Origin: Ostreococcus lucimarinus | Lineage: Eukaryota | Strand: one strand, 5' to 3' | Length of the DNA stretch: 64,000 bases | NCBI GenBank assembly: GCA_000092065.1 | Contig: CP000597.1 | In this document: in pieces, positions 7,476-41,824 of the stretch | How the letters are laid out: each line of letters begins with the position of its first letter | Numbering within the stretch: position 1 is the stretch's first letter | Position numbers and translations under genes: made by a program | The notes under the pieces: generated by a model | What the model saw: the letters and a program-made list of their open reading frames with translations, nothing else | What the model was told of the DNA's origin: nothing | The model's database searches: none

Positions 7476-8975
7476 ATGGTGCGCGCGATGGACGTCGACG
7501 TCGTCGACCGGGCGTCGCGCGAGGGCGATGAGATCGCGAAACGCGCCTCGCTGGACGTCGAGACGGGTCGGGACGCGAAGATGGGCGACGCGGGGGCGAG
7601 TTCGCGGTCGAATTCGTCCGCCGCCACGGAGACTATGCGAAATGTCGATCGCGAATGCGGGACGACGGCGGAGCGACGAGGGAAGTACAGGTCGAGCGAG
7701 ACGCACGAGGAGCACGTGAATAAGAAGATACACGCGGCGAAGCGGCGGACGAGGAGCGAGCTGTCGGTGCGACAGGGAGGGTGGGCGAAGCACGGGTACG
7801 CGTACGAGGACGCGGACGCGACGTCGCGGTCGTTGAAACATTTACACGCGATCGAGCGGATATCGGTGAAGACGACGACAAAGGAAGAGTTTATCGAAAG
7901 GTTCGAGAGGACACGGACGCCGTGCGTGATCACGGACGCGATGGAGGATTGGGGGTGTTATAAAAACGACGGCGGGCGGTTTTGGAGCGTAGACACGCTC
8001 GCGGAGCGGTTTCGAGAGGTCAAGTTCAAGGTGGGGACGGACGACGATGGGTACCCGGTGCGGTTGAAGATGAAGCACATTCAGCATTACGTGAACGATC
8101 CGGTGCACATGCGAGACGATAGTCCGATGTATGCGTTCGACGGGAGCGTCTTTGACAAGCCGGAGACAAAGTCGTTATTGGAGGACTTCAAGATTCCAGA
8201 TTGGTTCGAGGAGGATTTGTTCAAGCACGTCGGGGCGAAGCGTCGACCGCCTTATCGATGGATCGTTTTTGGGCCGCCTCGGAGCGGTTCGTCCGTGCAC
8301 GTTGACCCGTTGGCGACGAGCGCTTGGAATGCGTTGATTTCGGGACGCAAGCGTTGGGCGCTTTATCCGCCGCGCTCGGTGGACAAGGCGACGATCAAGC
8401 CGCGAGGAATTGGTCTGGATGGTGAATCGGTGACCTGGTTCAACAAAATGTACCCTCGAACGACGACAGAGGAGTGGAAGCGCCAAGGATTGCCCCCACC
8501 CATTGATGTCATCCAACATCCTGGGGAAATCATGTTCGTTCCAGACGGTTGGTGGCACGCAGTGCTGAATCTCGACCACACCATGGCGGTGACGCAAAAC
8601 TTTTCGACTTCCGCCCGATTCGACGCGGTGTGGCGCATCACGCGTCGAGCGCGACCGAAAATGTCTGCTAGATGGCTGGAAAAGTTGCGACGGGTTCGTC
8701 CAGATTTAGCCGAGGTGGCGGATGCGCAGCCTCGTCGAAGCGAAGTCAGCGCAGGTGAACAAACGAGTTCGACGAGCAGTTCATCCTCTGGTTCAAGCGA
8801 TACCGAAGCCGAAGCCGAGGACGAGGTCATGACGAAAGAACGCGAGACCTTTGAGCGAGCCGCGGGGGGCGGCGGCGACGCCTCGACCAAACGCACGAGA
8901 ACTGGAGACGGTTTGATCGCCGACCTGGCCGCGGAAAAGATGCGCGCGGCGTCGAAATCGATGGACATCAACTAA
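7476..8975 (+). CDS. JmjC-domain 2-oxoglutarate/Fe(II) oxygenase, JMJD6-like (lysyl hydroxylase/arginine demethylase family)
   Basis: YRWIVFGPPRSGSSVHVDPLATSAWNALISGRKRWALYPP and GEIMFVPDGWWHAVLNLDHTMAVTQNF align to the JMJD6 core, which reads [27 protein letters not shown]…[27 protein letters not shown]. The track ORF starts at a GTG at 7176 and has a low-complexity N-terminal extension; the first ATG is at 7476. Confidence 0.8.
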   Translation: MVRAMDVDVVDRASREGDEIAKRASLDVETGRDAKMGDAGASSRSNSSAATETMRNVDRECGTTAERRGKYRSSETHEEHVNKKIHAAKRRTRSELSVRQGGWAKHGYAYEDADATSRSLKHLHAIERISVKTTTKEEFIERFERTRTPCVITDAMEDWGCYKNDGGRFWSVDTLAERFREVKFKVGTDDDGYPVRLKMKHIQHYVNDPVHMRDDSPMYAFDGSVFDKPETKSLLEDFKIPDWFEEDLFKHVGAKRRPPYRWIVFGPPRSGSSVHVDPLATSAWNALISGRKRWALYPPRSVDKATIKPRGIGLDGESVTWFNKMYPRTTTEEWKRQGLPPPIDVIQHPGEIMFVPDGWWHAVLNLDHTMAVTQNFSTSARFDAVWRITRRARPKMSARWLEKLRRVRPDLAEVADAQPRRSEVSAGEQTSSTSSSSSGSSDTEAEAEDEVMTKERETFERAAGGGGDASTKRTRTGDGLIADLAAEKMRAASKSMDIN

Positions 8976-9039
8976 AAATTACGATATCAGAGGCACTCAT
9001 CATTAATTCATTGTACAATTGTTGTGAAACACATATAAT

Positions 9040-20073: not shown

Positions 20074-20124
20074 GGCTATCGGCTATCGGCTATCGGCTAT
20101 CGGCTATCGGCTATTGGCTGTGGC
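20074..20124. repeat. Heptanucleotide microsatellite (GGCTATC)x7
   Basis: The repeat reads gctggctatcggctatcggctatcggctatcggctatcggctattggctg. It lies between the DYRK promoter and the 3' end of the next gene. Confidence 0.8.
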
Positions 20125-21721
20125 TACGGGCCGCGGCCCACATCGTGAACACCTCGCTCGGTTCGCCGAAATCTTTGGAGACGAACCCGGAGACGGCGGT
20201 CGGGGAGACGGAACCGCAAAACAGCAGGCGACCGCCGGGCCAGGGGTTGCCGGCGTACCGGCCGCGTAAGACCACGCGGGGAGGGCAGACGGGGACGGAA
20301 CCGTCGCGCGCGTCGGAATCGTCGATGACGTAGACGATGCCCTTGAGTTCAGCCTTGCCCAAGCCGTCTTCGAGGTGCGCGGTGATGGTTCGCGAAGAAC
20401 GCGCGTCGACGTCGTCGTCGTCGGACGCGCGCGCGACGGCGTGCCAACCGCCCCGGTGAGCGCGGTCTCGAGTCGACACGAGGGGCTGGTAGTCGGGAGG
20501 AATCAAGAGCTTGAGCTTGAAGACGACGGCGTCCTTCGGGTCGTACCTCGGGTCGGTTGGGTGAAGCGTGTTCGCGTAGAGACGTGGAACGTCGAACGCG
20601 TATCGAAATCCCCGGTAATTCCCATCCATCGCGTTCGCCGTCGTCGGCGCGTCTGAAACGAGCGCGCGACGCTCGAGATCGCCCGTCGGACGGCCGCCGT
20701 GCGGATACGGACCGCCGCCGATGCGAGTGGGAGGGCATAAGTGGAACCCGTCGCTCGTAAACATCGCCGATAAAAGCGGGATCACGTGACACAGCTCGTG
20801 CGCCATTCCATAACTGTTCGATGCCCACATCGCCGTGCGCGCGAGAGTCCAGTCCTGCGATGGACTTCCACTGCCGATCTTCATTAAATTTCCCACGACC
20901 TTCTCATTCTTCTTCCTCTTCAGTGATATTTGAGCCTCCATAGCGCGCGTAGAGTACGCCGACAGAACTTCGCACATCGCCGGAACGAGCCCTTTAAACC
21001 GAGCTTCAATCGCACTCAACATGTCTTCGCGCGTTCCGTTTTTCCATAACCGACGCAGGCCAGGGTCTTTCACCAACAGTTCTCGAATCAATAGCGGAAT
21101 TATCGGCTTCGCTCGGTCGTCGAAAACCGCGTCGTAGTCGTCCGACGGCCTCGTTCCGCGGGCTCCGGATTCCGAATCGCCGTCGGGATCGTCATAATCG
21201 CAGTGCGTCGGCGCCCAAGGCAGCGGTGGTACGGTCAACGCCTCGACCAAGCCCGCAAAGTTTTCGCGCTCGCTTTCGCGCGCCCGATCGAAATCGACCC
21301 CCCTCTCCCGCTCCGCCCGCTCGCTCTCGCGCTCCGGCTCGCGCGTTCTCGTCAGACACGCGACTTTCAACGCGTACTCGTACGCGCGCGCGTCGTCCCC
21401 GAGCTCTCGAAACGACGCTCCGACGTCGTCGGCTCGCGCCGTCGCCGCCGCCGTCGTCGCGCACGTCTTCAGGAACACCCCTCGCATCGTCCGTCGCGTC
21501 GACGTCGTCCCGTCCGCGCGTCCCGGATGCCTCGCCAGCGCGCCTCGGCACGCGCGCGCCATCCTTCGCTCGTAGTGCGCGTCGTCGTCCGTCGCCGCGT
21601 CCGCGTACGCGCCGCATCGCGAGAACGCCGCGATCGTTCGCGCGTCCATCCACGGCAGGACGCAGTCCGCGAACACGCGCGTCGGGACGACGTCCTCGAG
21701 CGTCGTCGCGTCGCCCGTCAT
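20111..21721 (-). CDS. Hypothetical protein with a zincin-like HExxH motif (…SNSYGMAHELCHVIPLL…)
   Basis: A 536-aa ORF with coding-like composition across its length. The HELCH motif could indicate a metalloprotease-like fold. No family recognised. Confidence 0.5.
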   Translation of the reverse strand: MTGDATTLEDVVPTRVFADCVLPWMDARTIAAFSRCGAYADAATDDDAHYERRMARACRGALARHPGRADGTTSTRRTMRGVFLKTCATTAAATARADDVGASFRELGDDARAYEYALKVACLTRTREPERESERAERERGVDFDRARESERENFAGLVEALTVPPLPWAPTHCDYDDPDGDSESGARGTRPSDDYDAVFDDRAKPIIPLLIRELLVKDPGLRRLWKNGTREDMLSAIEARFKGLVPAMCEVLSAYSTRAMEAQISLKRKKNEKVVGNLMKIGSGSPSQDWTLARTAMWASNSYGMAHELCHVIPLLSAMFTSDGFHLCPPTRIGGGPYPHGGRPTGDLERRALVSDAPTTANAMDGNYRGFRYAFDVPRLYANTLHPTDPRYDPKDAVVFKLKLLIPPDYQPLVSTRDRAHRGGWHAVARASDDDDVDARSSRTITAHLEDGLGKAELKGIVYVIDDSDARDGSVPVCPPRVVLRGRYAGNPWPGGRLLFCGSVSPTAVSGFVSKDFGEPSEVFTMWAAARSHSQ

Positions 21722-34722: not shown

Positions 34723-36342
34723 ATGCGCGAGCGACGGCTGGGGACGAGCGATGGGACGACGACGCGCGAGGACTTTGGGGCGGATCGATTGCTGATCGAC
34801 GTGGCGAATTACGTCGTCGGGTACGAGATCAAGTCGAGGGACGCGGTGAAGACGGCGAGGCACGCGATAATGGATTTCGTCGCGTGCGCGCTGCGGGGAG
34901 GAAGCGATCCGGGGTGCGCGAAATTACTCGGACCGTGCGTGCCGGGAATCGAGTGCAAGCACGGAGCGCACGTGCCGGGGACGGAGTATTATCTCGATCC
35001 CGTGACGGCGACGTTTAACGCGACGACGTGCGCGCGGTGGTTGGATTACAACGATTCGTTTTACGGCGCGGAGTGGGCGCATCCGAGCGACACGATTGGG
35101 GCGATTTTGAGCGTCAGCGAGTACGTCAGTCGATTGAGGAACGATCGCGGGCTGAGCGTGCTGAGCATGCGAGACGTCATCGTGGCGACGATCAAGGCGT
35201 ACGAAATCGTCGGCGTGCTCGCGCTCGAGAACTCGTTCAATCAGATTGGCGTCGATCACGGACTGTTGACTCGCGTCGCCGTGGCCGCAGTGACGACGTC
35301 CATGCTCGGTGGTGGGCGATTAGAGGTGATGTACGCCACTTCGCAGGCTTTCATCGACGGCAGCGGTTTGCGATGCTTCCGACATTACCCGTGCGCGGGG
35401 ACGCGAAAGGGTTGGGCGGCGGGAGATAACGCCGCCCGAGGCGTCACTTTAGCGTTGATGACGATGAGAGGCGAAATAGGATATCTTGGTGCGCTGTCAG
35501 CGCCGGTTTGGGGATTCAACGACGTGTTTTACCGGCGTCAAGACATCGTGCTCAAGCGAGACTTTGGGGAATTCGTCATGGAAAACGTCGTCTTCAAGCC
35601 GTCGTTTCCGAGCGAGATTCACGCTCAAACCGCCATCGAGGCCGCGTTTCGATTGCATCCGCAAGTCGTCCACCGCGTGGACGAGGTTCACAGCGTCGCG
35701 GTTCACACCACACGTAGCGCTGTACGATGCATCGATAAGACCGGGCCGCTGAACGGGCCCGCGGATCGCGATCACTGCTTGCAGTACGCCGTCGCCGTCG
35801 CGCTCCTGTACGGGAATATGACATCAGATCATTACGAAGACTCCGTGGCGAGCGACCCGCGAGTGGATGAAATGAGACGCAAAATTCTCATCGCAGAAAA
35901 TCCACAATACAGCGCCGATTACGTTGATCCAGATCGCCGTTCTTGTTCGAATTCGATTCAAGTGCACTTTAAGGATCGCACGAGCACGAACAAGTTTGAG
36001 GTCGAGTACCCAGTTGGACATCGTCGCAGAAGAATGGAGGGGTTTCCAGCGTTAGAAAAGAAGTTCATATCGTCTTTACACACAAAGTTTCCACCGGAGC
36101 GTGCGGGATTCATCTTTGAACGAGTCACCGACGCGCAAATTTTCGACGCCTTGACACCGATGGACTTCATGGAATTGTTCAACGCCACGCCGCATCCCGT
36201 GCTCTTACCGCCGATGCGCGCGGCACCTGGAGTTTTTGATTACACTCCGATAGATAGTCGAGCGTCGACCCTAGTTCCTCGTCTCACGGATGGTACCGCA
36301 GAGACTCGAGCGGTGGGAGACGGCGCAGACGCGCGCGGTTAG
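34723..36342 (+). CDS. prpD: MmgE/PrpD family 2-methylcitrate dehydratase
   Basis: A 539-aa family member with IMDFVACAL near the N-terminus. It also has the conserved GHRRRRMEGFPALEKKF motif (PrpD GHPxRRxxxxxLxxKF). The start is an ATG at 34723. Confidence 0.85.
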   Translation: MRERRLGTSDGTTTREDFGADRLLIDVANYVVGYEIKSRDAVKTARHAIMDFVACALRGGSDPGCAKLLGPCVPGIECKHGAHVPGTEYYLDPVTATFNATTCARWLDYNDSFYGAEWAHPSDTIGAILSVSEYVSRLRNDRGLSVLSMRDVIVATIKAYEIVGVLALENSFNQIGVDHGLLTRVAVAAVTTSMLGGGRLEVMYATSQAFIDGSGLRCFRHYPCAGTRKGWAAGDNAARGVTLALMTMRGEIGYLGALSAPVWGFNDVFYRRQDIVLKRDFGEFVMENVVFKPSFPSEIHAQTAIEAAFRLHPQVVHRVDEVHSVAVHTTRSAVRCIDKTGPLNGPADRDHCLQYAVAVALLYGNMTSDHYEDSVASDPRVDEMRRKILIAENPQYSADYVDPDRRSCSNSIQVHFKDRTSTNKFEVEYPVGHRRRRMEGFPALEKKFISSLHTKFPPERAGFIFERVTDAQIFDALTPMDFMELFNATPHPVLLPPMRAAPGVFDYTPIDSRASTLVPRLTDGTAETRAVGDGADARG

Positions 36343-36615
36343 CAACGCTTCGGCGACACCCCTTGTTGTAATGGTAGCATGAAACACGAACGCGAGCCGT
36401 CAGCGATTGAGTTTGCGCCAAGCAATCGAAACGACGCGATTTAGTGATGCGATTCAGTGATGCGATTCAGTGATGCGATGGCTAAAAAACGATGAAGTAA
36501 TGATCACTTCCGTGACAAGTCAGATAACAACTCTGAAGCTCCTCGCTTTTTTCAGCGAGAGCGTAACTACCCTCCGCTAACGGCTAATAGTAATATCGTT
36601 CCTTAGGGTAAATAT

Positions 36616-37478
36616 TTACCCTTGGACTTGGCGCTGGTCAACGGCGCACGCAGCTTCGGACGCCGGGCGGTGAGCCAAGAACGCGGAGCATTGCACTTGC
36701 TTGATGTTGTCGAAGCCAGCGACGCGGACGTAGCATTCCGGGAAGCACTTGATGCAGGTGTTGATTTCCGCAATGACTTCATCCGGGTTTTGGCAGCCGT
36801 ACATGGGGAGCTTCCACATAACCCAGTAACGGTTGTCGTAGTAACCGGCGTTGATGGAGGTGTCCATGTTCGCCCAGCCGTGGCCGTCGGTGTACGCGTG
36901 CGCGGAGTCTTCGAACTCGATGCACGGGGTCCAGCCGTTGTTCAACAAGTATTGCACTTGCTTGGAGATTTCGGCGTCGGAGAGCGGCGGCAAGAAGGAG
37001 AAGGTCTCGAACATCCTGCGTGACGACGTAAAAACGAAGCGAAATCGGTCAGTACAGCGCTCGCGCGCGTCGTTCGGACCCTCGTCGGTGACCGAGTTAA
37101 AACCCTAAAACCCAATAACCCAGCGCGCGTTCCTGACCGCACGATCGCCGCCGAACGAGCCCTCGCGCGCACCCCCCACGCCGACCCCTCGCACCGCGAT
37201 CGCGGGCGTTAAAACGTCGAAGAAGAACTTTCTTCAACGAAATATCGCCCTCGCGGCGTCGTCGAGGCGCGCGCGCGCGCGCAGAGGTCGCGCAACGTTC
37301 GCGCGATGCGGCGCTATCCTCTCGCGAAAGATACGCGAAGGTTCGATCGATCGCGCGCGTTCACGTACTTGTTGCCGTGCGGGCGCCAGATCATCATGGA
37401 CTTGGCGTTGGCGACCTTGCCGGTGGTGACGGCGACGGTCTTCGCGACTTGCGCGGAAGCTTGGGTGATGGCGGACAT
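36616..37478 (-). CDS. RBCS: Rubisco small subunit precursor, copy 1. Two exons: complement(join(36616..37015,37369..37478)). Intron 37016..37368 (GT…AG).
   Basis: Exon 2 encodes MFETFSFLPPLSDAEISKQVQYLLNNGWTPCIEFEDSAHAYTDGHGWANMDTSINAGYYDNRYWVMWKLPMYGCQNPDEVIAEINTCIKCFPECYVRVAGFDNIKQVQCSAFLAHRPASEAACAVDQRQVQG*. Exon 1 encodes the transit peptide MSAITQASAQVAKTVAVTTGKVANAKSMMIWRPHGN plus the first two bases (AA) of a codon. The AA|G junction restores …GNK-MFETF, exactly as in Chlamydomonas RbcS (…VNNKMFETFSYLPPL). Confidence 0.9.
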
Positions 37479-37741
37479 GATTGCGTGCGTGTGGATTAGT
37501 GCGGCGCGCGCGCCGCGCGCGCGCGTCGGGGCGGCGCGAGGTGCCGAATGTCCGAATCACGATCGCCCGCCCCTTAAAACGTATTCCAATCGTCTCTACA
37601 ACTATATGATTTCGATTTTGACGGGATAATCTCGACGAGATAAATTCGAGCGCGCGTTTTCGCGCGAATCGTGTGGATTTGCTGACTCGGTGCCGATCAC
37701 GCGAGGGCGTCGGCACTTTCCAGCACGCTTATCTCGAAATC
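37479..37741. promoter_or_regulatory. Shared bidirectional promoter between divergent RBCS copies 1 and 2
   Basis: 263 bp separate the two ATGs (37478 on minus, 37742 on plus). The GC-rich left half contains CCGAATGTCCGAAT at 37544..37557. The AT-rich right half (37568..37650) has TATA-like CTATATGA and GATAA elements. Confidence 0.6.
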
Positions 37742-38633
37742 ATGTCCGCCATCACCCAAGCCTCCGCGCAAGTCGCGAAGACCGTCGCCGTCACCACCGG
37801 CAAGGTCGCCAACGCCAAGTCCATGATGATCTGGCGCCCGCACGGCAACAAGTACGTGAACGCGCGCGCGCGACGGGACGCGAACGTAATCCGAAAAAGC
37901 GACGCGCGCGGATTGCTCGGCCGGTCGTGAAGAAGGGGTCTTCGAGGGGCGCGCGAGGGCGTCGTGACGCGCGCGATGAATGAAAAAGATGCCTGAAGTT
38001 TTTATGCATCGGATCGTCAGCGCGCGGTGGGCGTCGCGCGTCGACGCGAGCGTCGGCACGGGGTTCGAGTGAGCCCCCCCAGGGGGGAGGCCTCCGAGAT
38101 CCATCGTAACCGCCTTCGGAGATTTCTTCTTTAATTTTCCTCGCGACGCGTGGTTGCGCGTTGAAATCGACGGAAAACGATGCACAGAATAATTACTGAC
38201 CCGATTTCGCTTCGTTTTTACGTCGTCACGCAGGATGTTCGAGACCTTCTCCTTCTTGCCGCCGCTCTCCGACGCTGAAATCTCCAAGCAAGTGCAATAC
38301 TTGTTGAACAACGGCTGGACCCCGTGCATCGAGTTCGAAGACTCCGCGCACGCGTACACCGACGGCCACGGCTGGGCGAACATGGACACCTCCATCAACG
38401 CCGGTTACTACGACAACCGTTACTGGGTTATGTGGAAGCTCCCCATGTACGGCTGCCAAAACCCGGATGAAGTCATTGCGGAAATCAACACCTGCATCAA
38501 GTGCTTCCCGGATTGCTACGTCCGCGTCGCTGGCTTCGACAACATCAAGCAAGTGCAATGCTCCGCGTTCTTGGCTCACCGCCCGGCGTCCGAAGCTGCG
38601 TGCGCCGTTGACCAGCGCCAAGTCCAAGGGTAA
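37742..38633 (+). CDS. RBCS: Rubisco small subunit precursor, copy 2. Two exons: join(37742..37851,38234..38633). Intron 37852..38233 (GTACGT…CAG).
   Basis: Same exon structure as copy 1. The mature protein is identical to copy 3 and differs from copy 1 at one residue (CFPDCY versus CFPECY). The last ~45 nt of the intron (…cgatttcgcttcgtttttacgtcgtcacgcag) are conserved in all three copies. Confidence 0.9.
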
Positions 38634-39244
38634 ACGTCTCGACGTTTCCTGCGAACGCCCGCGCGCGTCTGTAGACGCGCGCTGCCGCGGACTCACGCTC
38701 GTGTAGAGATGTAGTCCTATTGAATTACATACGAAGACTTCACGTCACTTCACGCGTTAACGCTTCGCCCTCGCCCTCGCGCGTCGCGCATCTCCGGACG
38801 CTCTCTCTCCCTCTCGCGCGGACCGACCGCCGCGCAGCACACCCGGTCGTAACCGTTCCATTTGACCGTTCCAATCCCTTCTCGAACGCGCGCGAAGATT
38901 TTCCGAGATCGAGGACTCGCCGCGGTTCGCGACTCAAGAAATCTAGATCACGCCGTGAGATCTTCGCCCGCCGTCGTTTCCGCCACACGTTTCCGCGCCG
39001 CCGGGCGAAAATGAGGCTTTAGGGTTTACGCGCGTCGTATGGGCAAACAGTTCGCGAGCACTCTGCGTAGGCCCCCTGAAGGGGGCTTTTTCCTCTATTT
39101 TCTTACATACAGCTTACATAATTTATAATACAGAGAAGATCCCATATAAAGTACATCACGAATACGAATACGAACGCCCTCACAACCCCCTGACGCGCGC
39201 GCCGCCGCGGCCGAGCGACATAATCGCACGCGTATCTCGAGATC

Positions 39245-40364
39245 ATGTCTGCCATCACCCAAGCCTCCGCGCAAGTCGCGAAGACCGTCGCCGTCACCAC
39301 CGGCAAGGTCGCCAACGCCAAGTCCATGATGATCTGGCGCCCGCACGGCAACAAGTACGTATAGTTTACGACGTGTTTCGACGCGATCGCGCGCCGCGTC
39401 CGATCGCGCCGCATCCGACGCCCCGAGGGACGATCGTCGTCGTGTTCGCGCGCGTCCGCGCGCGCGTCGCCGACGCGATCGCGGTCGATCTCTTCGATGA
39501 TTTTCATCGCATCGATCGCGACGCGCGAAAGCGGCGCGCGCGCAACGTGGACGCGTGCGAACCGTCGATCACGGCGCGGTCGCGGGGTGATCGGATAAGC
39601 GCGAAAACCCAAACGCGAAAACCCAAACGGGAACCCGAGCGGGAATTTTCGGGTGTTTGCGTCGAACGGCGCGGCGTTCGACGATTTAGCGTGCGCGATG
39701 ATTTGTGCATCGTCGAGTCGGGCGTCGAGACGTCGAGACGTCGTCGCCGCGCGCGCGGCGGGGTCGGTCGGCGCGCGGATCATCCGTAGATTATCATCGA
39801 CCGGACGATCGGCCGTCGACCGACCTTTGAATGCTCGGCGCGGGAGGGTGTTTCGTACTCGGGTCGGACGCGGTCCACGAGCGACGTCACGGTTGGGCGA
39901 GCGTAGAAGACTCGCGCGAGCGCTGTACTGACCGATTTCGCTTCGTTTTTACGTCGTCACGCAGGATGTTCGAGACCTTCTCCTTCTTGCCGCCGCTCTC
40001 CGACGCCGAAATCTCCAAGCAAGTGCAATACTTGTTGAACAACGGCTGGACCCCGTGCATCGAGTTCGAAGACTCCGCGCACGCGTACACCGACGGCCAC
40101 GGCTGGGCGAACATGGACACCTCCATCAACGCCGGTTACTACGACAACCGTTACTGGGTTATGTGGAAGCTCCCCATGTACGGCTGCCAAAACCCGGATG
40201 AAGTCATTGCGGAAATCAACACCTGCATCAAGTGCTTCCCGGATTGCTACGTCCGCGTCGCTGGCTTCGACAACATCAAGCAAGTGCAATGCTCCGCGTT
40301 CTTGGCTCACCGCCCGGCGTCCGAAGCTGCGTGCGCCGTTGACCAGCGCCAAGTCCAAGGGTAA
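39245..40364 (+). CDS. RBCS: Rubisco small subunit precursor, copy 3. Two exons: join(39245..39354,39965..40364). Intron 39355..39964 (610 nt).
   Basis: Exon 1 is 110 nt and encodes the same transit peptide (atgtctgccatcacccaagcctcc…aacaa|gtacgt). Exon 2 is nucleotide-near-identical to copy 2. Its promoter has TATA-like elements (tttataatacag and ccatataaagtac) at 39120..39150. Confidence 0.9.
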
Positions 40365-40522
40365 ACGTCTCGACGTTTCCTGCGAACGCCCGCGCAAGTC
40401 GACTCAACTCAGTATTATGAAGATTTTTTCCATTTGATTTACGTAGGAAATTGCTTTGTCTGTCATAATGAGATGCATACTTACATATTAAAATGTCCCC
40501 GAATTTCTCGACGCGACTCGGA

Positions 40523-41824
40523 TCAGCGAAGCTCGCCGAGCGCCGCACGCGAGAAGACTGCCCGTGTGCTCTCGTCGCCCGCGCATACCTCTGACGAACT
40601 CGAGTCGTCGGAATTTTTGCTGAAGTCTAATGGTAATGTCAGTTCTAAGTGTCTCTTCGCGCCTGAGTATTTGAATTTGAAATCAAACGTGCGTCGAGAA
40701 CGTTCACGAAGCTCGCGCTTGCCCACGACGGCGGCGCTCGGCGGCGTCCCGGTGGTTACGACCCAACTCCGCGCTCGCTCGACGTCTCGGAGCTGCATCG
40801 TCGCCAACTCGTCCTGGCTTAAAGGCTGAGCTGTGATGGGTTTATGATTCAACCAAACGTTCACGAGGAACGTCACGCGCTTAGACGACTGCGGCGTACC
40901 GCGCGCGAACTCACTCGGGGCGCCGTGCAAGAACCGTCCGTCAAATGTGATTTGCTTCCCCCACTTTGGCCACGAAACGACGCACTCGGTGATATCACCG
41001 CACACCCCGACGTCGCCGTTTTCGTAATCACAATTCACCTTCGTCGGACGGTTCACGACCACCGTCGGCGTCCCTCCGTCGCAAAAGTACGTCACCGTGC
41101 CGAGTTGCGGATGCGCGTTGACGCCCGCGCCCTCGAGGGCGTAGTCTTTGTCCCAGTGCCACCCGATCTCATCACCCTCATCGATGACTTGCGTCCACCA
41201 CTCGGCGCCCGATTTCGAGGGATCATACCTCGCTCTCTCGTCTTCGTCGCGCGCGCCGGCGTCTCGTTCCGCGCGCGCCGCGGCTTCGCGCGTCGCCCTT
41301 CGAAACGTCTCTCGCGCTAAATACTCGAGCGCGCACCTCGGTTCGCTCTCGGCGTTCACCCAAAACGTCCTCCCACTCGACGTCCCGCTCGTCCTTCTCT
41401 TCCCTCTCGCATTTTTCGCCGTGTGCGCCGCCTCGCAATCCTTCGTCAACCGCCTCGCGTCGTCGTCGTCGAGCGCGTCTCGCCCCGCGAACGTCGTCGC
41501 GCTCGTCGTCTCGTACGTCAGGTATCGGTTCACTTCGCACGCGATTCGTCCGAGTTCATCCACCGCGAGTTCGAGCTCGGACGTCGCGCTCGCGTCGTCG
41601 TCGCTCTCGTCGCTCTCGTCGCTCTCGCTCTCGCTCTCGCTCTCGCTCGTCGTCGCCTCGCGCGCGTCGTTCGCGCGCCTCGTCCGTCGCGTCGTCATCC
41701 GCGCCTCGTCGTCGCGTCGTCGACGTCGCGCGTTCGCCGCCCCGCGTCGCGCGCGCCGGTCGCCCGACGCGCGACGGGCGTCGCGCGTTCGCCGCGTCGA
41801 CGGCCGCCGGGCTCGAGCGCGCAA
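40523..41824 (-). CDS. Hypothetical protein with a 2OG-Fe(II)-oxygenase/cupin-like HxD…H arrangement
   Basis: …IGWHWDKDYALEGAGVNAHPQLGTVTYFCDGGTPTVVVNRPTKVN…ITFDGRFLHGAP…RVTFLVNVWLNHKP…. The N-terminus has an acidic SESESESDESDESDDD tract. The first ATG after the low-complexity region is near 41698. Confidence 0.45.
   Translation of the reverse strand: MRARARRPSTRRTRDARRASGDRRARRGAANARRRRRDDEARMTTRRTRRANDAREATTSESESESESDESDESDDDASATSELELAVDELGRIACEVNRYLTYETTSATTFAGRDALDDDDARRLTKDCEAAHTAKNARGKRRTSGTSSGRTFWVNAESEPRCALEYLARETFRRATREAAARAERDAGARDEDERARYDPSKSGAEWWTQVIDEGDEIGWHWDKDYALEGAGVNAHPQLGTVTYFCDGGTPTVVVNRPTKVNCDYENGDVGVCGDITECVVSWPKWGKQITFDGRFLHGAPSEFARGTPQSSKRVTFLVNVWLNHKPITAQPLSQDELATMQLRDVERARSWVVTTGTPPSAAVVGKRELRERSRRTFDFKFKYSGAKRHLELTLPLDFSKNSDDSSSSEVCAGDESTRAVFSRAALGELR

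What the first reader, a model, noticed from the sequence alone, without database searches (positions are those of the whole stretch)
36616..40364. Triplicated RBCS locus: an inverted head-to-head pair plus a direct third copy, with homogenised exons and divergent introns
The three RbcS genes lie at 36616..37478 on minus, 37742..38633 on plus and 39245..40364 on plus. Their mature proteins differ at only one residue (E/D, copy 1 versus copies 2 and 3), and their exon nucleotide sequences are near-identical. Their single introns differ in length (353, 382 and 610 nt) and in sequence, apart from the first ~17 nt and the last ~45 nt. That pattern points to concerted evolution or gene conversion acting on exons, or a recent inverted duplication followed by intron turnover. 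Each gene is spliced at the transit-peptide/mature-protein junction (phase-2 AA|G). The six-frame track cannot represent this and shows the exons as unrelated ORFs plus antisense ORFs.
Basis: partly seen in the sequence, partly recalled or inferred. Interest (0 to 1): 0.6.

Follow-up and report, generated by a model that had tools for sequence, protein, structure and literature searches.

The report
Three Rubisco small-subunit genes kept identical
The tiny marine alga Ostreococcus lucimarinus carries three neighbouring Rubisco small-subunit genes whose coding parts are kept almost identical by repeated copying between them while their introns drift apart, which is a clean example of a long-known process rather than a new kind of system.

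Summary
The window is Ostreococcus lucimarinus CCE9901. It carries three expressed RBCS genes: c1 on minus, c2 and c3 on plus. Each has exons of 110 and 400 nt and one phase-2 GT..AG intron of 353, 382 or 610 nt. The coding sequences differ at 2-3 of 510 nt and one residue (E/D). Intron interiors are no more alike than shuffled sequence.

Polyadenylated, intron-free environmental contigs break exactly at the predicted junctions and carry the copy-specific 3'UTR of each copy.

The array beside the PrpD gene is old. The same layout occurs in O. tauri and another Ostreococcus lineage. Micromonas pusilla also has three copies beside PrpD, with the middle one flipped. Yet the copies group by species: paralogue dS is 0-0.02 against 0.34-0.39 between species, with 68 species-fixed sites. 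So this is concerted evolution by short, DNA-templated gene conversion anchored on the exons, not a recent duplication.

One detail is wrong. The intron lies 10 codons inside the mature protein, at the position of Chlamydomonas RBCS2 intron 1, not at the transit-peptide junction.

The genes are already annotated and the phenomenon is classical for RBCS. It is a new member of a known kind, of modest interest.

The parts
34723..36342 (+). Neighbouring 2-methylcitrate dehydratase (PrpD/MmgE) gene, tail-to-tail with c1. It serves as the conserved synteny anchor of the RBCS array.
   Evidence: Exact match to XP_001422164.1 of O. lucimarinus CCE9901. PrpD also flanks the RBCS array in O. tauri, in environmental strains and in M. 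pusilla.
36494..36615 (-). c1 3'UTR (minimum extent), specific to this copy
   Evidence: Environmental transcripts L002 and L005 extend to 36507 and 36494 at 99.8-100% identity. It diverges from c2 and c3 one nt after the stop codon.
36616..37015 (-). c1 exon 2 (400 nt, including the stop); carries the E variant
   Evidence: 1-2 differences from c2 and c3.
37016..37368 (-). c1 intron, 353 nt, GT..AG, phase 2. The branch-point-like TACTGAC sits 34-40 nt upstream of the 3' splice site.
   Evidence: The junction is confirmed by the intron-free contig L004, which matches at 100%.
37369..37478 (-). c1 exon 1 (110 nt): a 27-aa transit peptide plus the first 9 2/3 codons of the mature protein
37479..37741 (.). 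263-bp head-to-head spacer between the c1 and c2 start codons. It is the presumed shared bidirectional promoter and has an AT-rich core near 37570-37650.
   Evidence: Sequence. Transcript 5' ends lie at or beyond 37500 for c1 and 37723 for c2. The promoter role is inferred.
37742..37851 (+). c2 exon 1
37852..38233 (+). c2 intron, 382 nt. It contains a C7/G6 palindrome at 38074-38087.
38234..38633 (+). c2 exon 2 (D variant)
38634..38737 (+). c2 3'UTR, up to the poly(A) site
   Evidence: Contig L006 aligns to 38737 and then continues as an A-run.
38738..39244 (.). c2-c3 spacer and c3 promoter region. It holds a C5/G5 hairpin followed by a T-run at 39072-39092 and an AT-rich patch at 39100-39150.
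   Evidence: c3 transcript 5' ends reach at least 39217.
39245..39354 (+). c3 exon 1
39355..39964 (+). c3 intron, 610 nt
   Evidence: It is 97.6-99.5% identical to the c3 intron of other strains.
39965..40364 (+). c3 exon 2 (D variant here; E in strains L014 and L020)
40365..40493 (+). c3 3'UTR, up to the poly(A) site
   Evidence: Contig L007 aligns to 40493 and then continues as an A-run.

Best explanation
This is the nuclear RBCS (Rubisco small subunit) gene array of Ostreococcus lucimarinus, and all three paralogues are transcribed and spliced.

The triplication is old. It predates at least the split of the Ostreococcus species, and probably the split of Bathycoccaceae from Mamiellaceae.

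The copies stay nearly identical because of recurrent, short-tract interlocus gene conversion. This is homologous-recombination repair that uses a paralogue's genomic DNA as template. It acts between inverted as well as direct copies. It works separately on two homology blocks: exon 1 with a few flanking nucleotides (about 120-140 nt), and exon 2 with the intron tail from the branch point to the acceptor (about 435-470 nt).

Intron interiors, spacers and most of the UTRs long ago diverged beyond what heteroduplex formation tolerates. They bound the conversion tracts and evolve independently, each stable at its own position.

Purifying selection on a very highly expressed, stoichiometric subunit, together with strong codon bias (GC3 = 0.85), probably helps converted, uniform alleles persist.

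Crossovers between inverted copies occasionally flip the segment between them. This would explain the flipped middle copy in Micromonas and the apparent inversion between two O. tauri assemblies.

Shown here: gene structure, expression, splicing, synteny, the within- versus between-species pattern, the tract boundaries, and paralogue variants that move between copies. Inferred: the recombination mechanism itself, the contribution of selection, and the bidirectional promoter.
For: 1. Identity and expression.
- Pfam RuBisCO_small, E = 3e-39.
- The protein aligns to solved RbcS chains over the whole mature length.
- Eleven intron-free environmental contigs from 11 samples break exactly at the junctions. 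Two carry poly(A) tails. Between them they carry the copy-specific 3'UTRs of c1, c2 and c3.

2. Ancient array.
- PrpD | RBCS(-) | RBCS(+) | RBCS(+) occurs in O. tauri.
- The same three-gene arrangement occurs in a third Ostreococcus lineage, L024, whose contig ends before the PrpD side.
- PrpD plus three RBCS genes occurs in M. pusilla, with the middle copy flipped.
- Intron lengths are conserved by position: 353/382/610 against 358/384/583.

3. Concerted pattern.
- Paralogue dS is 0-0.019 within O. lucimarinus and O. tauri. Between the species dS is 0.34-0.39 and dN 0.105.
- 68 sites are fixed in all three copies of each species yet differ between the species.
- M. pusilla shows the same picture: exon 1 identical and 2-5 differences in 390 nt of exon 2.

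4. Tracts use DNA as template. The 31-41 nt from the ACTGAC branch-point motif to the acceptor are shared by the paralogues but differ between lineages, in four lineages.

5. Introns are not fast-evolving. Orthologous introns are 92-99.7% identical between strains, while paralogous interiors sit at the shuffle baseline.

6. Conversion is ongoing and limited to one block at a time.
- CDS site 6 in c2 switches between the c1 state and the c3 state among strains.
- The E/D site in c3 takes the c1 state in L014 and L020.
- In L016, exon 2 of c2 escaped homogenisation (16/400 differences, 5 matching O. tauri) while its exon 1 is standard.
Against: - No conversion event was observed directly.
- The evidence for variants moving between copies rests on two sites, in metagenome contigs whose sequencing technology I could not verify. 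L014 and L020 may be the same strain.
- Non-coding DNA is saturated between species, so positional orthology rests on synteny, orientation and intron length, not on alignable sequence.
- Bathycoccus, in the same family, has only direct copies and no adjacent PrpD, so rearrangement or independent duplication in some lineages is possible.
- In four lineages the homogenised intron tail begins at the branch-point motif. A purely homology-limited model does not predict that coincidence. Selection on splicing signals, or another template, may contribute.
- Yamada et al. 2019 (PMC6859733) found no gene-conversion signal in angiosperm rbcS and favoured birth-and-death evolution.
Confidence: 0.85

Rival explanations
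1. Recent triplication, including an inverted duplication, within the O. lucimarinus lineage. The exons are identical simply because the copies are young, and the introns were remodelled quickly by indels and replacement.
For: Exon identity of 99.4-99.6% is what young duplicates would show. The intron ends are still shared.
Against: - The same array and orientation occur in O. tauri and in the L024 lineage, and a three-copy array beside PrpD occurs in Micromonas.
- Intron lengths are conserved by position across species.
- Each intron is 92-99.7% conserved between strains whose flanks differ by 1-3%. Introns therefore do not turn over fast enough to become unalignable while synonymous sites differ by under 2%.
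Confidence: 0.02
2. Purifying selection alone, without sequence exchange. Extreme constraint on the protein and on codon usage in a top-expressed gene keeps three independently evolving old copies the same.
For: - RbcS is highly constrained, and GC3 is 0.85, which indicates strong codon bias.
- The exons of strain L016 are identical to the window although its flanks differ by 2.9%.
- Pichersky and Cashmore 1986 argued for selection in tomato rbcS (cited in PMC6859733).
Against: - 68 substitutions, about 30 synonymous and about 40 non-synonymous, are fixed in parallel in all three copies of each species. Independent evolution would not do this.
- The lineage-specific but paralogue-shared intron tails have no coding constraint.
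- Paralogue variants swap between copies among strains.
Confidence: 0.04
3. RNA- or cDNA-templated homogenisation. Repair uses reverse-transcribed RBCS mRNA, which is very abundant, or splicing intermediates. Only transcribed and spliced sequence is copied, and introns are occasionally erased.
For: - Homogeneity is essentially confined to the exons.
- The middle copy in the O. tauri RCC4221 assembly has lost its intron precisely, the classical signature of recombination with cDNA.
- The intron-tail tract starts at the branch point. That is where reverse transcription of a lariat-exon 2 intermediate would stop. This last point is my own inference.
Against: - Spliced mRNA cannot homogenise the 31-41 nt intron tails or the 13-17 nt intron heads shared by some pairs.
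- The UTRs are part of the mRNA but are not homogenised for c1.
- For c1/c3 the identity runs about 12-20 nt beyond the branch-point motif: 52 nt exact, 60 nt at 97%.
- Introns are retained in 14 of the 15 gene copies examined.
- The intron-less copy could be an assembly artefact, because RCC1115 has all three introns.
Confidence: 0.06
4. Assembly or polishing artefact. Near-identical exons result from collapsed or consensus-corrected paralogues in the reference assembly.
For: Repeats of 400 nt at over 99% identity are a known hazard for assemblers. Some short transcript contigs are clearly chimeric between copies, for example L001 and L002.
Against: Six independent long contigs from six samples reproduce the three copies, their order, their introns and the copy-specific variants. 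The O. tauri and M. pusilla reference genomes show the same pattern.
Confidence: 0.01

Closest known systems
Chlamydomonas reinhardtii RBCS1/RBCS2 tandem pair
   Same: - They are nuclear RBCS paralogues a few kb apart.
- Between-copy similarity is confined to exon-centred blocks of 90-439 nt at 95-99%, with unalignable introns in between.
- Intron 1 (145 nt) interrupts the same Lys codon, in the same phase (AA|G), just before MFETF. The Mamiellales intron is therefore its positional homologue.
   Different: - Chlamydomonas has two direct copies with three introns each. Ostreococcus has three copies, including an inverted pair, with one intron each.
- The Chlamydomonas copies are less tightly homogenised: 95-99% per block against 99.4-100% here.
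- Chlamydomonas intron 1 has been shown experimentally to enhance expression (PMC7419008). Nothing of that kind has been tested for Ostreococcus.
Concerted evolution of rbcS multigene families in land plants (tomato, petunia, Arabidopsis RBCS1B-3B and others)
   Same: Paralogues within a species are more alike than orthologues between species. The arrays are tandem. Gene conversion was proposed long ago (Sugita 1987 and Pichersky and Cashmore 1986, as cited in PMC6859733).
   Different: - In angiosperms the cause is disputed. Yamada et al. 2019 found no significant conversion signal and favoured birth-and-death evolution.
- Here positional synteny across genera, position-specific introns and sharp tract edges separate conversion from recent duplication much more cleanly.
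- The Ostreococcus family is minimal, at three genes in a 13-Mb genome (genome size from my own knowledge).
Exon-limited gene conversion between old duplicates in general, such as the human gamma-globin genes HBG1/HBG2 (from my own knowledge, not tested here)
   Same: Conversion tracts are bounded by diverged non-coding DNA, variants are shared between paralogues, and occasional escapes occur.
   Different: This is a different gene family and organism. Here conversion also works across an inverted pair, which additionally permits inversion of the intervening DNA.

Membership tests
RuBisCO small subunit (RbcS, form I, green-type, nuclear-encoded) | RuBisCO_small domain (Pfam PF00101) above the curated cut-off | tested here: met
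   133.4 bits against a cut-off of 27, E = 3e-39, covering profile positions 1-97 of 97.
RuBisCO small subunit (RbcS, form I, green-type, nuclear-encoded) | Full-length alignment to experimentally solved RbcS chains, with an N-terminal extension that serves as the transit peptide | tested here: met
   Residue 1 of the mature Chlamydomonas chains 1gk8_I and 1ir2_I and of spinach 1aa1_S aligns to query residue 28, E down to 1e-48. Residues 1-27 form the presequence. Cleavage itself was not tested.
RuBisCO small subunit (RbcS, form I, green-type, nuclear-encoded) | The gene is expressed and correctly spliced | tested here: met
   Intron-free, partly polyadenylated environmental contigs match each copy's UTRs and break exactly at the junctions. 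That these samples are metatranscriptomes is inferred from the poly(A) tails and the mRNA-sized contigs.
Concerted evolution by interlocus gene conversion | Paralogues within a species are more similar than orthologues between species | tested here: met
   dS is 0-0.019 within species and 0.34-0.39 between species, with 68 species-fixed sites.
Concerted evolution by interlocus gene conversion | The duplication predates the speciation events being compared | tested here: met
   The array keeps its neighbours, orientation and position-specific intron lengths in O. tauri and O. lucimarinus, and its gene arrangement in L024. M. pusilla also has three copies beside PrpD. This rests on synteny, because the non-coding sequence is saturated.
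Concerted evolution by interlocus gene conversion | Sharp identity tracts that end in unrelated flanking or intron sequence | tested here: met
   Tracts of 119-139 nt around exon 1 and 434-470 nt around exon 2. Intron interiors are at the shuffle baseline.
Concerted evolution by interlocus gene conversion | Paralogous sequence variants are exchanged between copies within populations | tested here: met
   CDS sites 6 and 390 change copy affiliation among strains, and exon 2 of L016 c2 is unconverted. Only a few sites are involved, from metagenome assemblies.
Concerted evolution by interlocus gene conversion | Direct observation of a conversion event and of its template | not testable with these tools
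   This needs mutation-accumulation lines or pedigree long-read sequencing.
cDNA (reverse-transcript) mediated homogenisation | The homogenised sequence coincides with the mature mRNA: UTRs included, intron sequence excluded | tested here: not met
   Intron tails of 31-41 nt are homogenised in a lineage-specific way, while the c1 UTRs are not.
cDNA (reverse-transcript) mediated homogenisation | Precise intron loss in some copies | tested here: inconclusive
   One copy in the O. tauri RCC4221 v2 assembly lacks its intron. Strain RCC1115 has it. An assembly artefact is not excluded.
Birth-and-death / recent segmental duplication | Introns and spacers are about as similar as synonymous sites | tested here: not met
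   Synonymous identity is at least 98%, while intron interiors are at the random baseline.
Positional homologue of Chlamydomonas RBCS2 intron 1 (expression-enhancing intron) | Same codon and same phase | tested here: met
   AA|GT...AG|G ATG TTC GAG in both. The 145-nt length matches RBCS2i1 as described in PMC7419008.
Positional homologue of Chlamydomonas RBCS2 intron 1 (expression-enhancing intron) | The intron enhances expression | not testable with these tools
   This requires intron deletion or reporter assays in Ostreococcus.

The most novel reading that the evidence does not exclude
The inverted RBCS copies act as a recombination switch, and RNA takes part in the homogenisation.

- Crossovers between inverted exons flip the head-to-head core. 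This is seen as an apparent inversion between the O. tauri RCC4221 and RCC1115 assemblies, and as the flipped middle copy in Micromonas.
- Reverse-transcribed splicing products occasionally serve as repair templates. That would explain the precise intron loss in one O. tauri copy. It would also explain why, in four lineages, the homogenised intron tail starts at the branch point, which is where reverse transcription of a lariat-exon 2 intermediate would stop.
Probability: 0.06. Interest if true: 0.65.

Novelty: new member of a known kind. Interest (0 to 1): 0.3.

Why it matters
Ostreococcus has one of the smallest and least redundant genomes of any free-living eukaryote. RBCS is therefore a rare gene kept in several copies, presumably for dosage.

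The locus is an unusually clean natural test of a disputed question: do rbcS paralogues look alike because of gene conversion, recent duplication or selection? Three things separate the alternatives here:
- positional synteny across genera;
- position-specific introns of conserved length;
- sharp, lineage-specific tract edges.

For angiosperms, a recent large survey could not detect conversion (PMC6859733).

There are practical uses too. O. tauri is transformable by homologous recombination (my own knowledge), so the copy-specific UTRs and introns defined here give handles for copy-specific editing and expression assays. The intron's positional homology with Chlamydomonas RBCS2 intron 1 suggests a candidate expression-enhancing intron for Mamiellales transgenes.

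None of this changes how RBCS families are understood.

Tried and rejected
- Rfam scan of 36300-40700 for intron-borne snoRNAs or other RNAs: only three chance-level hits, all far below the gathering scores.
- Sequence homology between O. lucimarinus and O. tauri introns and spacers, to prove positional orthology: local alignment scores were uniformly low and not specific to orthologous pairs. Only intron length and synteny could be used.
- Literature search for a published description of the Ostreococcus or Mamiellales RBCS array, and of Chlamydomonas RBCS1/2 gene conversion: nothing specific in the held library. Pichersky and Cashmore 1986 (PMC323628) is not held. I therefore tested the Chlamydomonas comparison directly on its locus.
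- Bathycoccus protein P0003 had no recorded locus. P0002 and P0058 were used instead.
- The long antisense ORFs over the exons (for example 36622-37023 on plus, and 38226-38696 on minus) were treated as by-products of 63% GC and were not pursued.
- The assembly-artefact and recent-duplication explanations were considered and rejected on the evidence given under the rival explanations.
Full report
**Where the window comes from**

Two long ORFs of the window (34723-36339 and 20114-21721) are exact matches to the Ostreococcus lucimarinus CCE9901 proteins XP_001422164.1 (2-methylcitrate dehydratase) and XP_001422265.1, on a 366,173-bp record. The window is 63% GC. The organism is a mamiellophycean green picoalga.

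**Check of the observation**

- c1: 36616-37478 on minus.
- c2: 37742-38633 on plus.
- c3: 39245-40364 on plus.
- Each has a 110-nt exon 1, a GT..AG intron of 353, 382 or 610 nt in phase 2 (AA|G), and a 400-nt exon 2.

The spliced products are 169-aa proteins with a complete RuBisCO_small domain (PF00101, E = 3e-39). The coding sequences differ at 3, 3 and 2 of 510 positions. There is a single replacement, E in c1 against D in c2 and c3.

The introns share very little.
- c1 and c2 share the first 17 nt. c3 shares only the first 6 nt with them.
- All three share the last 33 nt exactly. c1 and c3 share 52 nt exactly.
- The interiors align no better than shuffled sequence: 0.41-0.55 identity against shuffle means of 0.40-0.51.

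Repeat detection shows the homology blocks directly: 119-139 nt around exon 1 and 434-470 nt around exon 2. There is no fourth copy in the window.

**Expression and splicing**

The exact c1 protein (P0001) and the exact c2/c3 protein (P0122, which is the annotated XP_001422165.1) are encoded without interruption on eleven short contigs (537-941 nt) from eleven environmental samples.

Aligned to the window, each contig splits into two pieces that meet exactly at the predicted junctions. For example, L004 matches 37500-37368 and then 37015-36615 at 100%.

Several contigs continue into copy-specific 3'UTRs.
- c1: to 36494.
- c2: to 38737.
- c3: to 40493.
- L006 and L007 end in A-runs that are absent from the genome.

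They are therefore polyadenylated mRNAs, and all three copies are transcribed. Some contigs combine the 5' end of one copy with the 3' end of another (L001, L002). This is what an assembler is expected to do with near-identical exons. That the samples are metatranscriptomes is my inference from these properties.

**Where the intron sits**

Residue 1 of the mature small-subunit chains in solved structures aligns to residue 28 of the precursor. These chains are Chlamydomonas 1gk8 and 1ir2 and spinach 1aa1. The mature protein therefore starts at MMIWRPHGNK|MFETF, and the intron interrupts codon 37, ten residues inside it.

Chlamydomonas RBCS2 is split in the same Lys codon and the same phase...AACAA|GTGAGT...TTGCAG|GATGTTCGAG. 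That intron is 145 nt long. It is the well-known RBCS2 intron 1, which enhances expression (PMC7419008). The single Mamiellales intron is thus the positional homologue of an ancient green-algal intron.

**Age of the array**

O. tauri:
- RCC4221 carries PrpD tail-to-tail with one RBCS gene. That gene is head-to-head with a second, which is followed by a third in direct orientation.
- O. tauri RCC1115 has the same layout, with introns of 358, 384 and 583 nt in positional order. O. lucimarinus has 353, 382 and 610.

Other Ostreococcus:
- A third Ostreococcus lineage, environmental contig L024, has about 84% amino-acid identity and the same head-to-head-plus-direct arrangement.
- Six long environmental contigs of O. 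lucimarinus-like strains are 97.1-99.2% identical over the locus and all show the identical array.

Other genera:
- Micromonas pusilla CCMP1545 belongs to a different family. It also has three RBCS genes next to PrpD, with the same intron position, but the middle copy points the other way.
- One crossover between the two outer copies, which are inverted relative to each other, converts one arrangement into the other. This is an inference.
- Bathycoccus has two or three direct copies and no adjacent PrpD.

**Concerted evolution**

The coding sequences group by species, not by position.
- Paralogue dS is 0.019 in O. lucimarinus and 0-0.01 in O. tauri.
- Between the two species dS is 0.34-0.39 and dN is about 0.105.
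- 68 sites are fixed in all three copies of each species yet differ between the species.

M. pusilla repeats the pattern. Exon 1 is identical in all three copies, the first 390 nt of exon 2 differ at 2-5 sites, and intron interiors are close to the shuffle baseline.

Each O. lucimarinus intron is 92-99.7% identical to its positional counterpart in other strains. Introns are therefore not evolving fast. The paralogous introns are simply old. This rules out recent duplication with intron turnover.

**Nature of the exchange**

In O. lucimarinus, O. tauri, L024 and M. pusilla, the 31-41 nt from the branch-point-like ACTGAC motif to the acceptor AG are shared by the paralogues of a genome. The sequence differs between lineages. 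Some examples:
- O. lucimarinus: CCGATTTCGCTTCGTTTTTACGTCGTCACGCAG.
- O. tauri: GGCTTATTTTCTTTTCCTTCTCTCTCAG.

Spliced mRNA cannot carry this segment, so the template is genomic DNA. Selection on splicing signals alone would not give lineage-specific identical strings.

Elsewhere the tracts barely leave the exons.
- They extend 6-19 nt into the intron 5' end.
- They extend 0-19 nt upstream of the ATG.
- They extend 0-5 nt past the stop, except about 31 nt for c2/c3 of O. lucimarinus.

**Ongoing and block-wise conversion**

Among strains, three things vary.
- Synonymous site 6 of c2 carries either the c1 state or the c3 state.
- The E/D site of c3 carries the c1 state in L014 and L020.
- In L016, exon 2 of c2 and its intron tail differ from the other copies of the same genome at 16 of 400 nt. 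Five of these states match O. tauri. Exon 1 of that gene is standard.

The two exon blocks therefore convert independently, and homogenisation is frequent but not absolute. These inferences rest on few sites in metagenome assemblies.

**Rival explanations**

- Selection alone cannot explain 68 parallel fixations or the concerted intron tails.
- cDNA-templated repair fits the exon-limited pattern and the precisely intron-less middle copy in the O. tauri RCC4221 assembly. It fails on the intron tails and on the unhomogenised c1 UTRs. It may be an occasional contributor.
- An assembly artefact is excluded by independent assemblies.

One point is not predicted by a simple homology-limited model: in four lineages the tract begins at the branch point. 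The boundary may have been inherited from the common ancestor, anchored by the selected branch-point motif. A speculative alternative, which I rate as unlikely, is templating by reverse-transcribed lariat intermediates.

**Comparison with what is known**

The genes are already annotated. Concerted evolution of RBCS families has been discussed since the 1980s for tomato and other plants (references in PMC6859733).

The Chlamydomonas RBCS1/RBCS2 pair shows the same block-wise similarity when tested directly: four blocks of 90-439 nt at 95-99%, separated by unalignable introns.

I found no description of the Mamiellales array in the held literature. The case is a new member of a known kind. Its merit is clarity. 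It separates conversion from birth-and-death, which a large angiosperm survey could not do.

**Verdict**

- The recent-duplication alternative and the transit-peptide-junction detail are rejected.
- Interest is modest, at 0.3.

Noticed in passing
L012 5498-8891 (O. tauri RCC4221, CAID01000018.2) versus L023 4994-8745 (O. tauri RCC1115, KZ155791.1): The two O. tauri assemblies differ in the head-to-head RBCS core. L012 7505-8902 equals the reverse complement of L023 6590-7988 at 99.1% identity, so the core is inverted. The middle copy of RCC4221 (7612-7109) lacks its intron precisely, while RCC1115 has all three introns. This is either a real inversion plus intron-loss polymorphism or an assembly artefact.
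   Followed up: partly
L016 (ENA ERZ10646569 contig_27864), middle RBCS copy, exon 2; coordinates 8628-9027 in the reverse-complemented locus: In one environmental O. lucimarinus-like strain, exon 2 of copy 2 and its intron tail differ from the strain's own copies 1 and 3 at 16 of 400 nt (8 amino acids). Five of these states match O. tauri. Exon 1 of the same gene is standard. This looks like an allele that escaped homogenisation.
   Followed up: partly
L021 4608-9142 (Micromonas pusilla CCMP1545, GG663751.1): There are three RBCS genes next to PrpD, with the middle copy in the opposite orientation to Ostreococcus. The three proteins have Gly/Pro-rich C-terminal tails of different length (183, 186 and 204 aa) beyond an otherwise identical body.
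   Followed up: partly
window 38074-38087 and 39072-39085: The only two C5-7...G5-6 palindromes in the 64-kb window both lie in the RBCS cluster, against 0.07 expected by chance. One is in the c2 intron. The other is in the c2-c3 spacer and is followed by a T-run. Both are conserved in all O. lucimarinus-like strains and absent from the O. tauri, L024, Micromonas and Bathycoccus loci. Their function is unknown.
   Followed up: partly
window 36436-36479: A 13-nt tandem repeat (GCGATTCAGTGAT, 3.4 copies) lies between the PrpD stop and the c1 3' end, just beyond the mapped c1 3'UTR. Shorter tandem repeats lie inside the c1 intron (AAAACCCA x3, 37099-37122) and the c3 intron (CGCGAAAACCCAAA x2.4, 39600-39633).
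   Followed up: no
L022 9001-11612 (Bathycoccus prasinos OZ117022.1) and L025 7246-12898 (environmental Bathycoccus contig): Bathycoccus has direct tandem RBCS copies: two in the reference and three in an environmental contig. In the latter a 554-aa ORF lies on the opposite strand between copies 1 and 2. The 213-aa Bathycoccus models P0002 and P0003 contain the exon-1 peptide twice. The 325-aa O. tauri model P0128 is about twice the length of one RbcS protein and spans the range of two RBCS copies. These look like annotation errors caused by the tandem copies.
   Followed up: no
L005 1-300 (JGI 3300026420, Ga0247581_1023434): The first 300 nt of this otherwise RBCS-transcript-like contig do not match the window. 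It is probably a chimeric assembly or an unrelated 5' extension.
   Followed up: no
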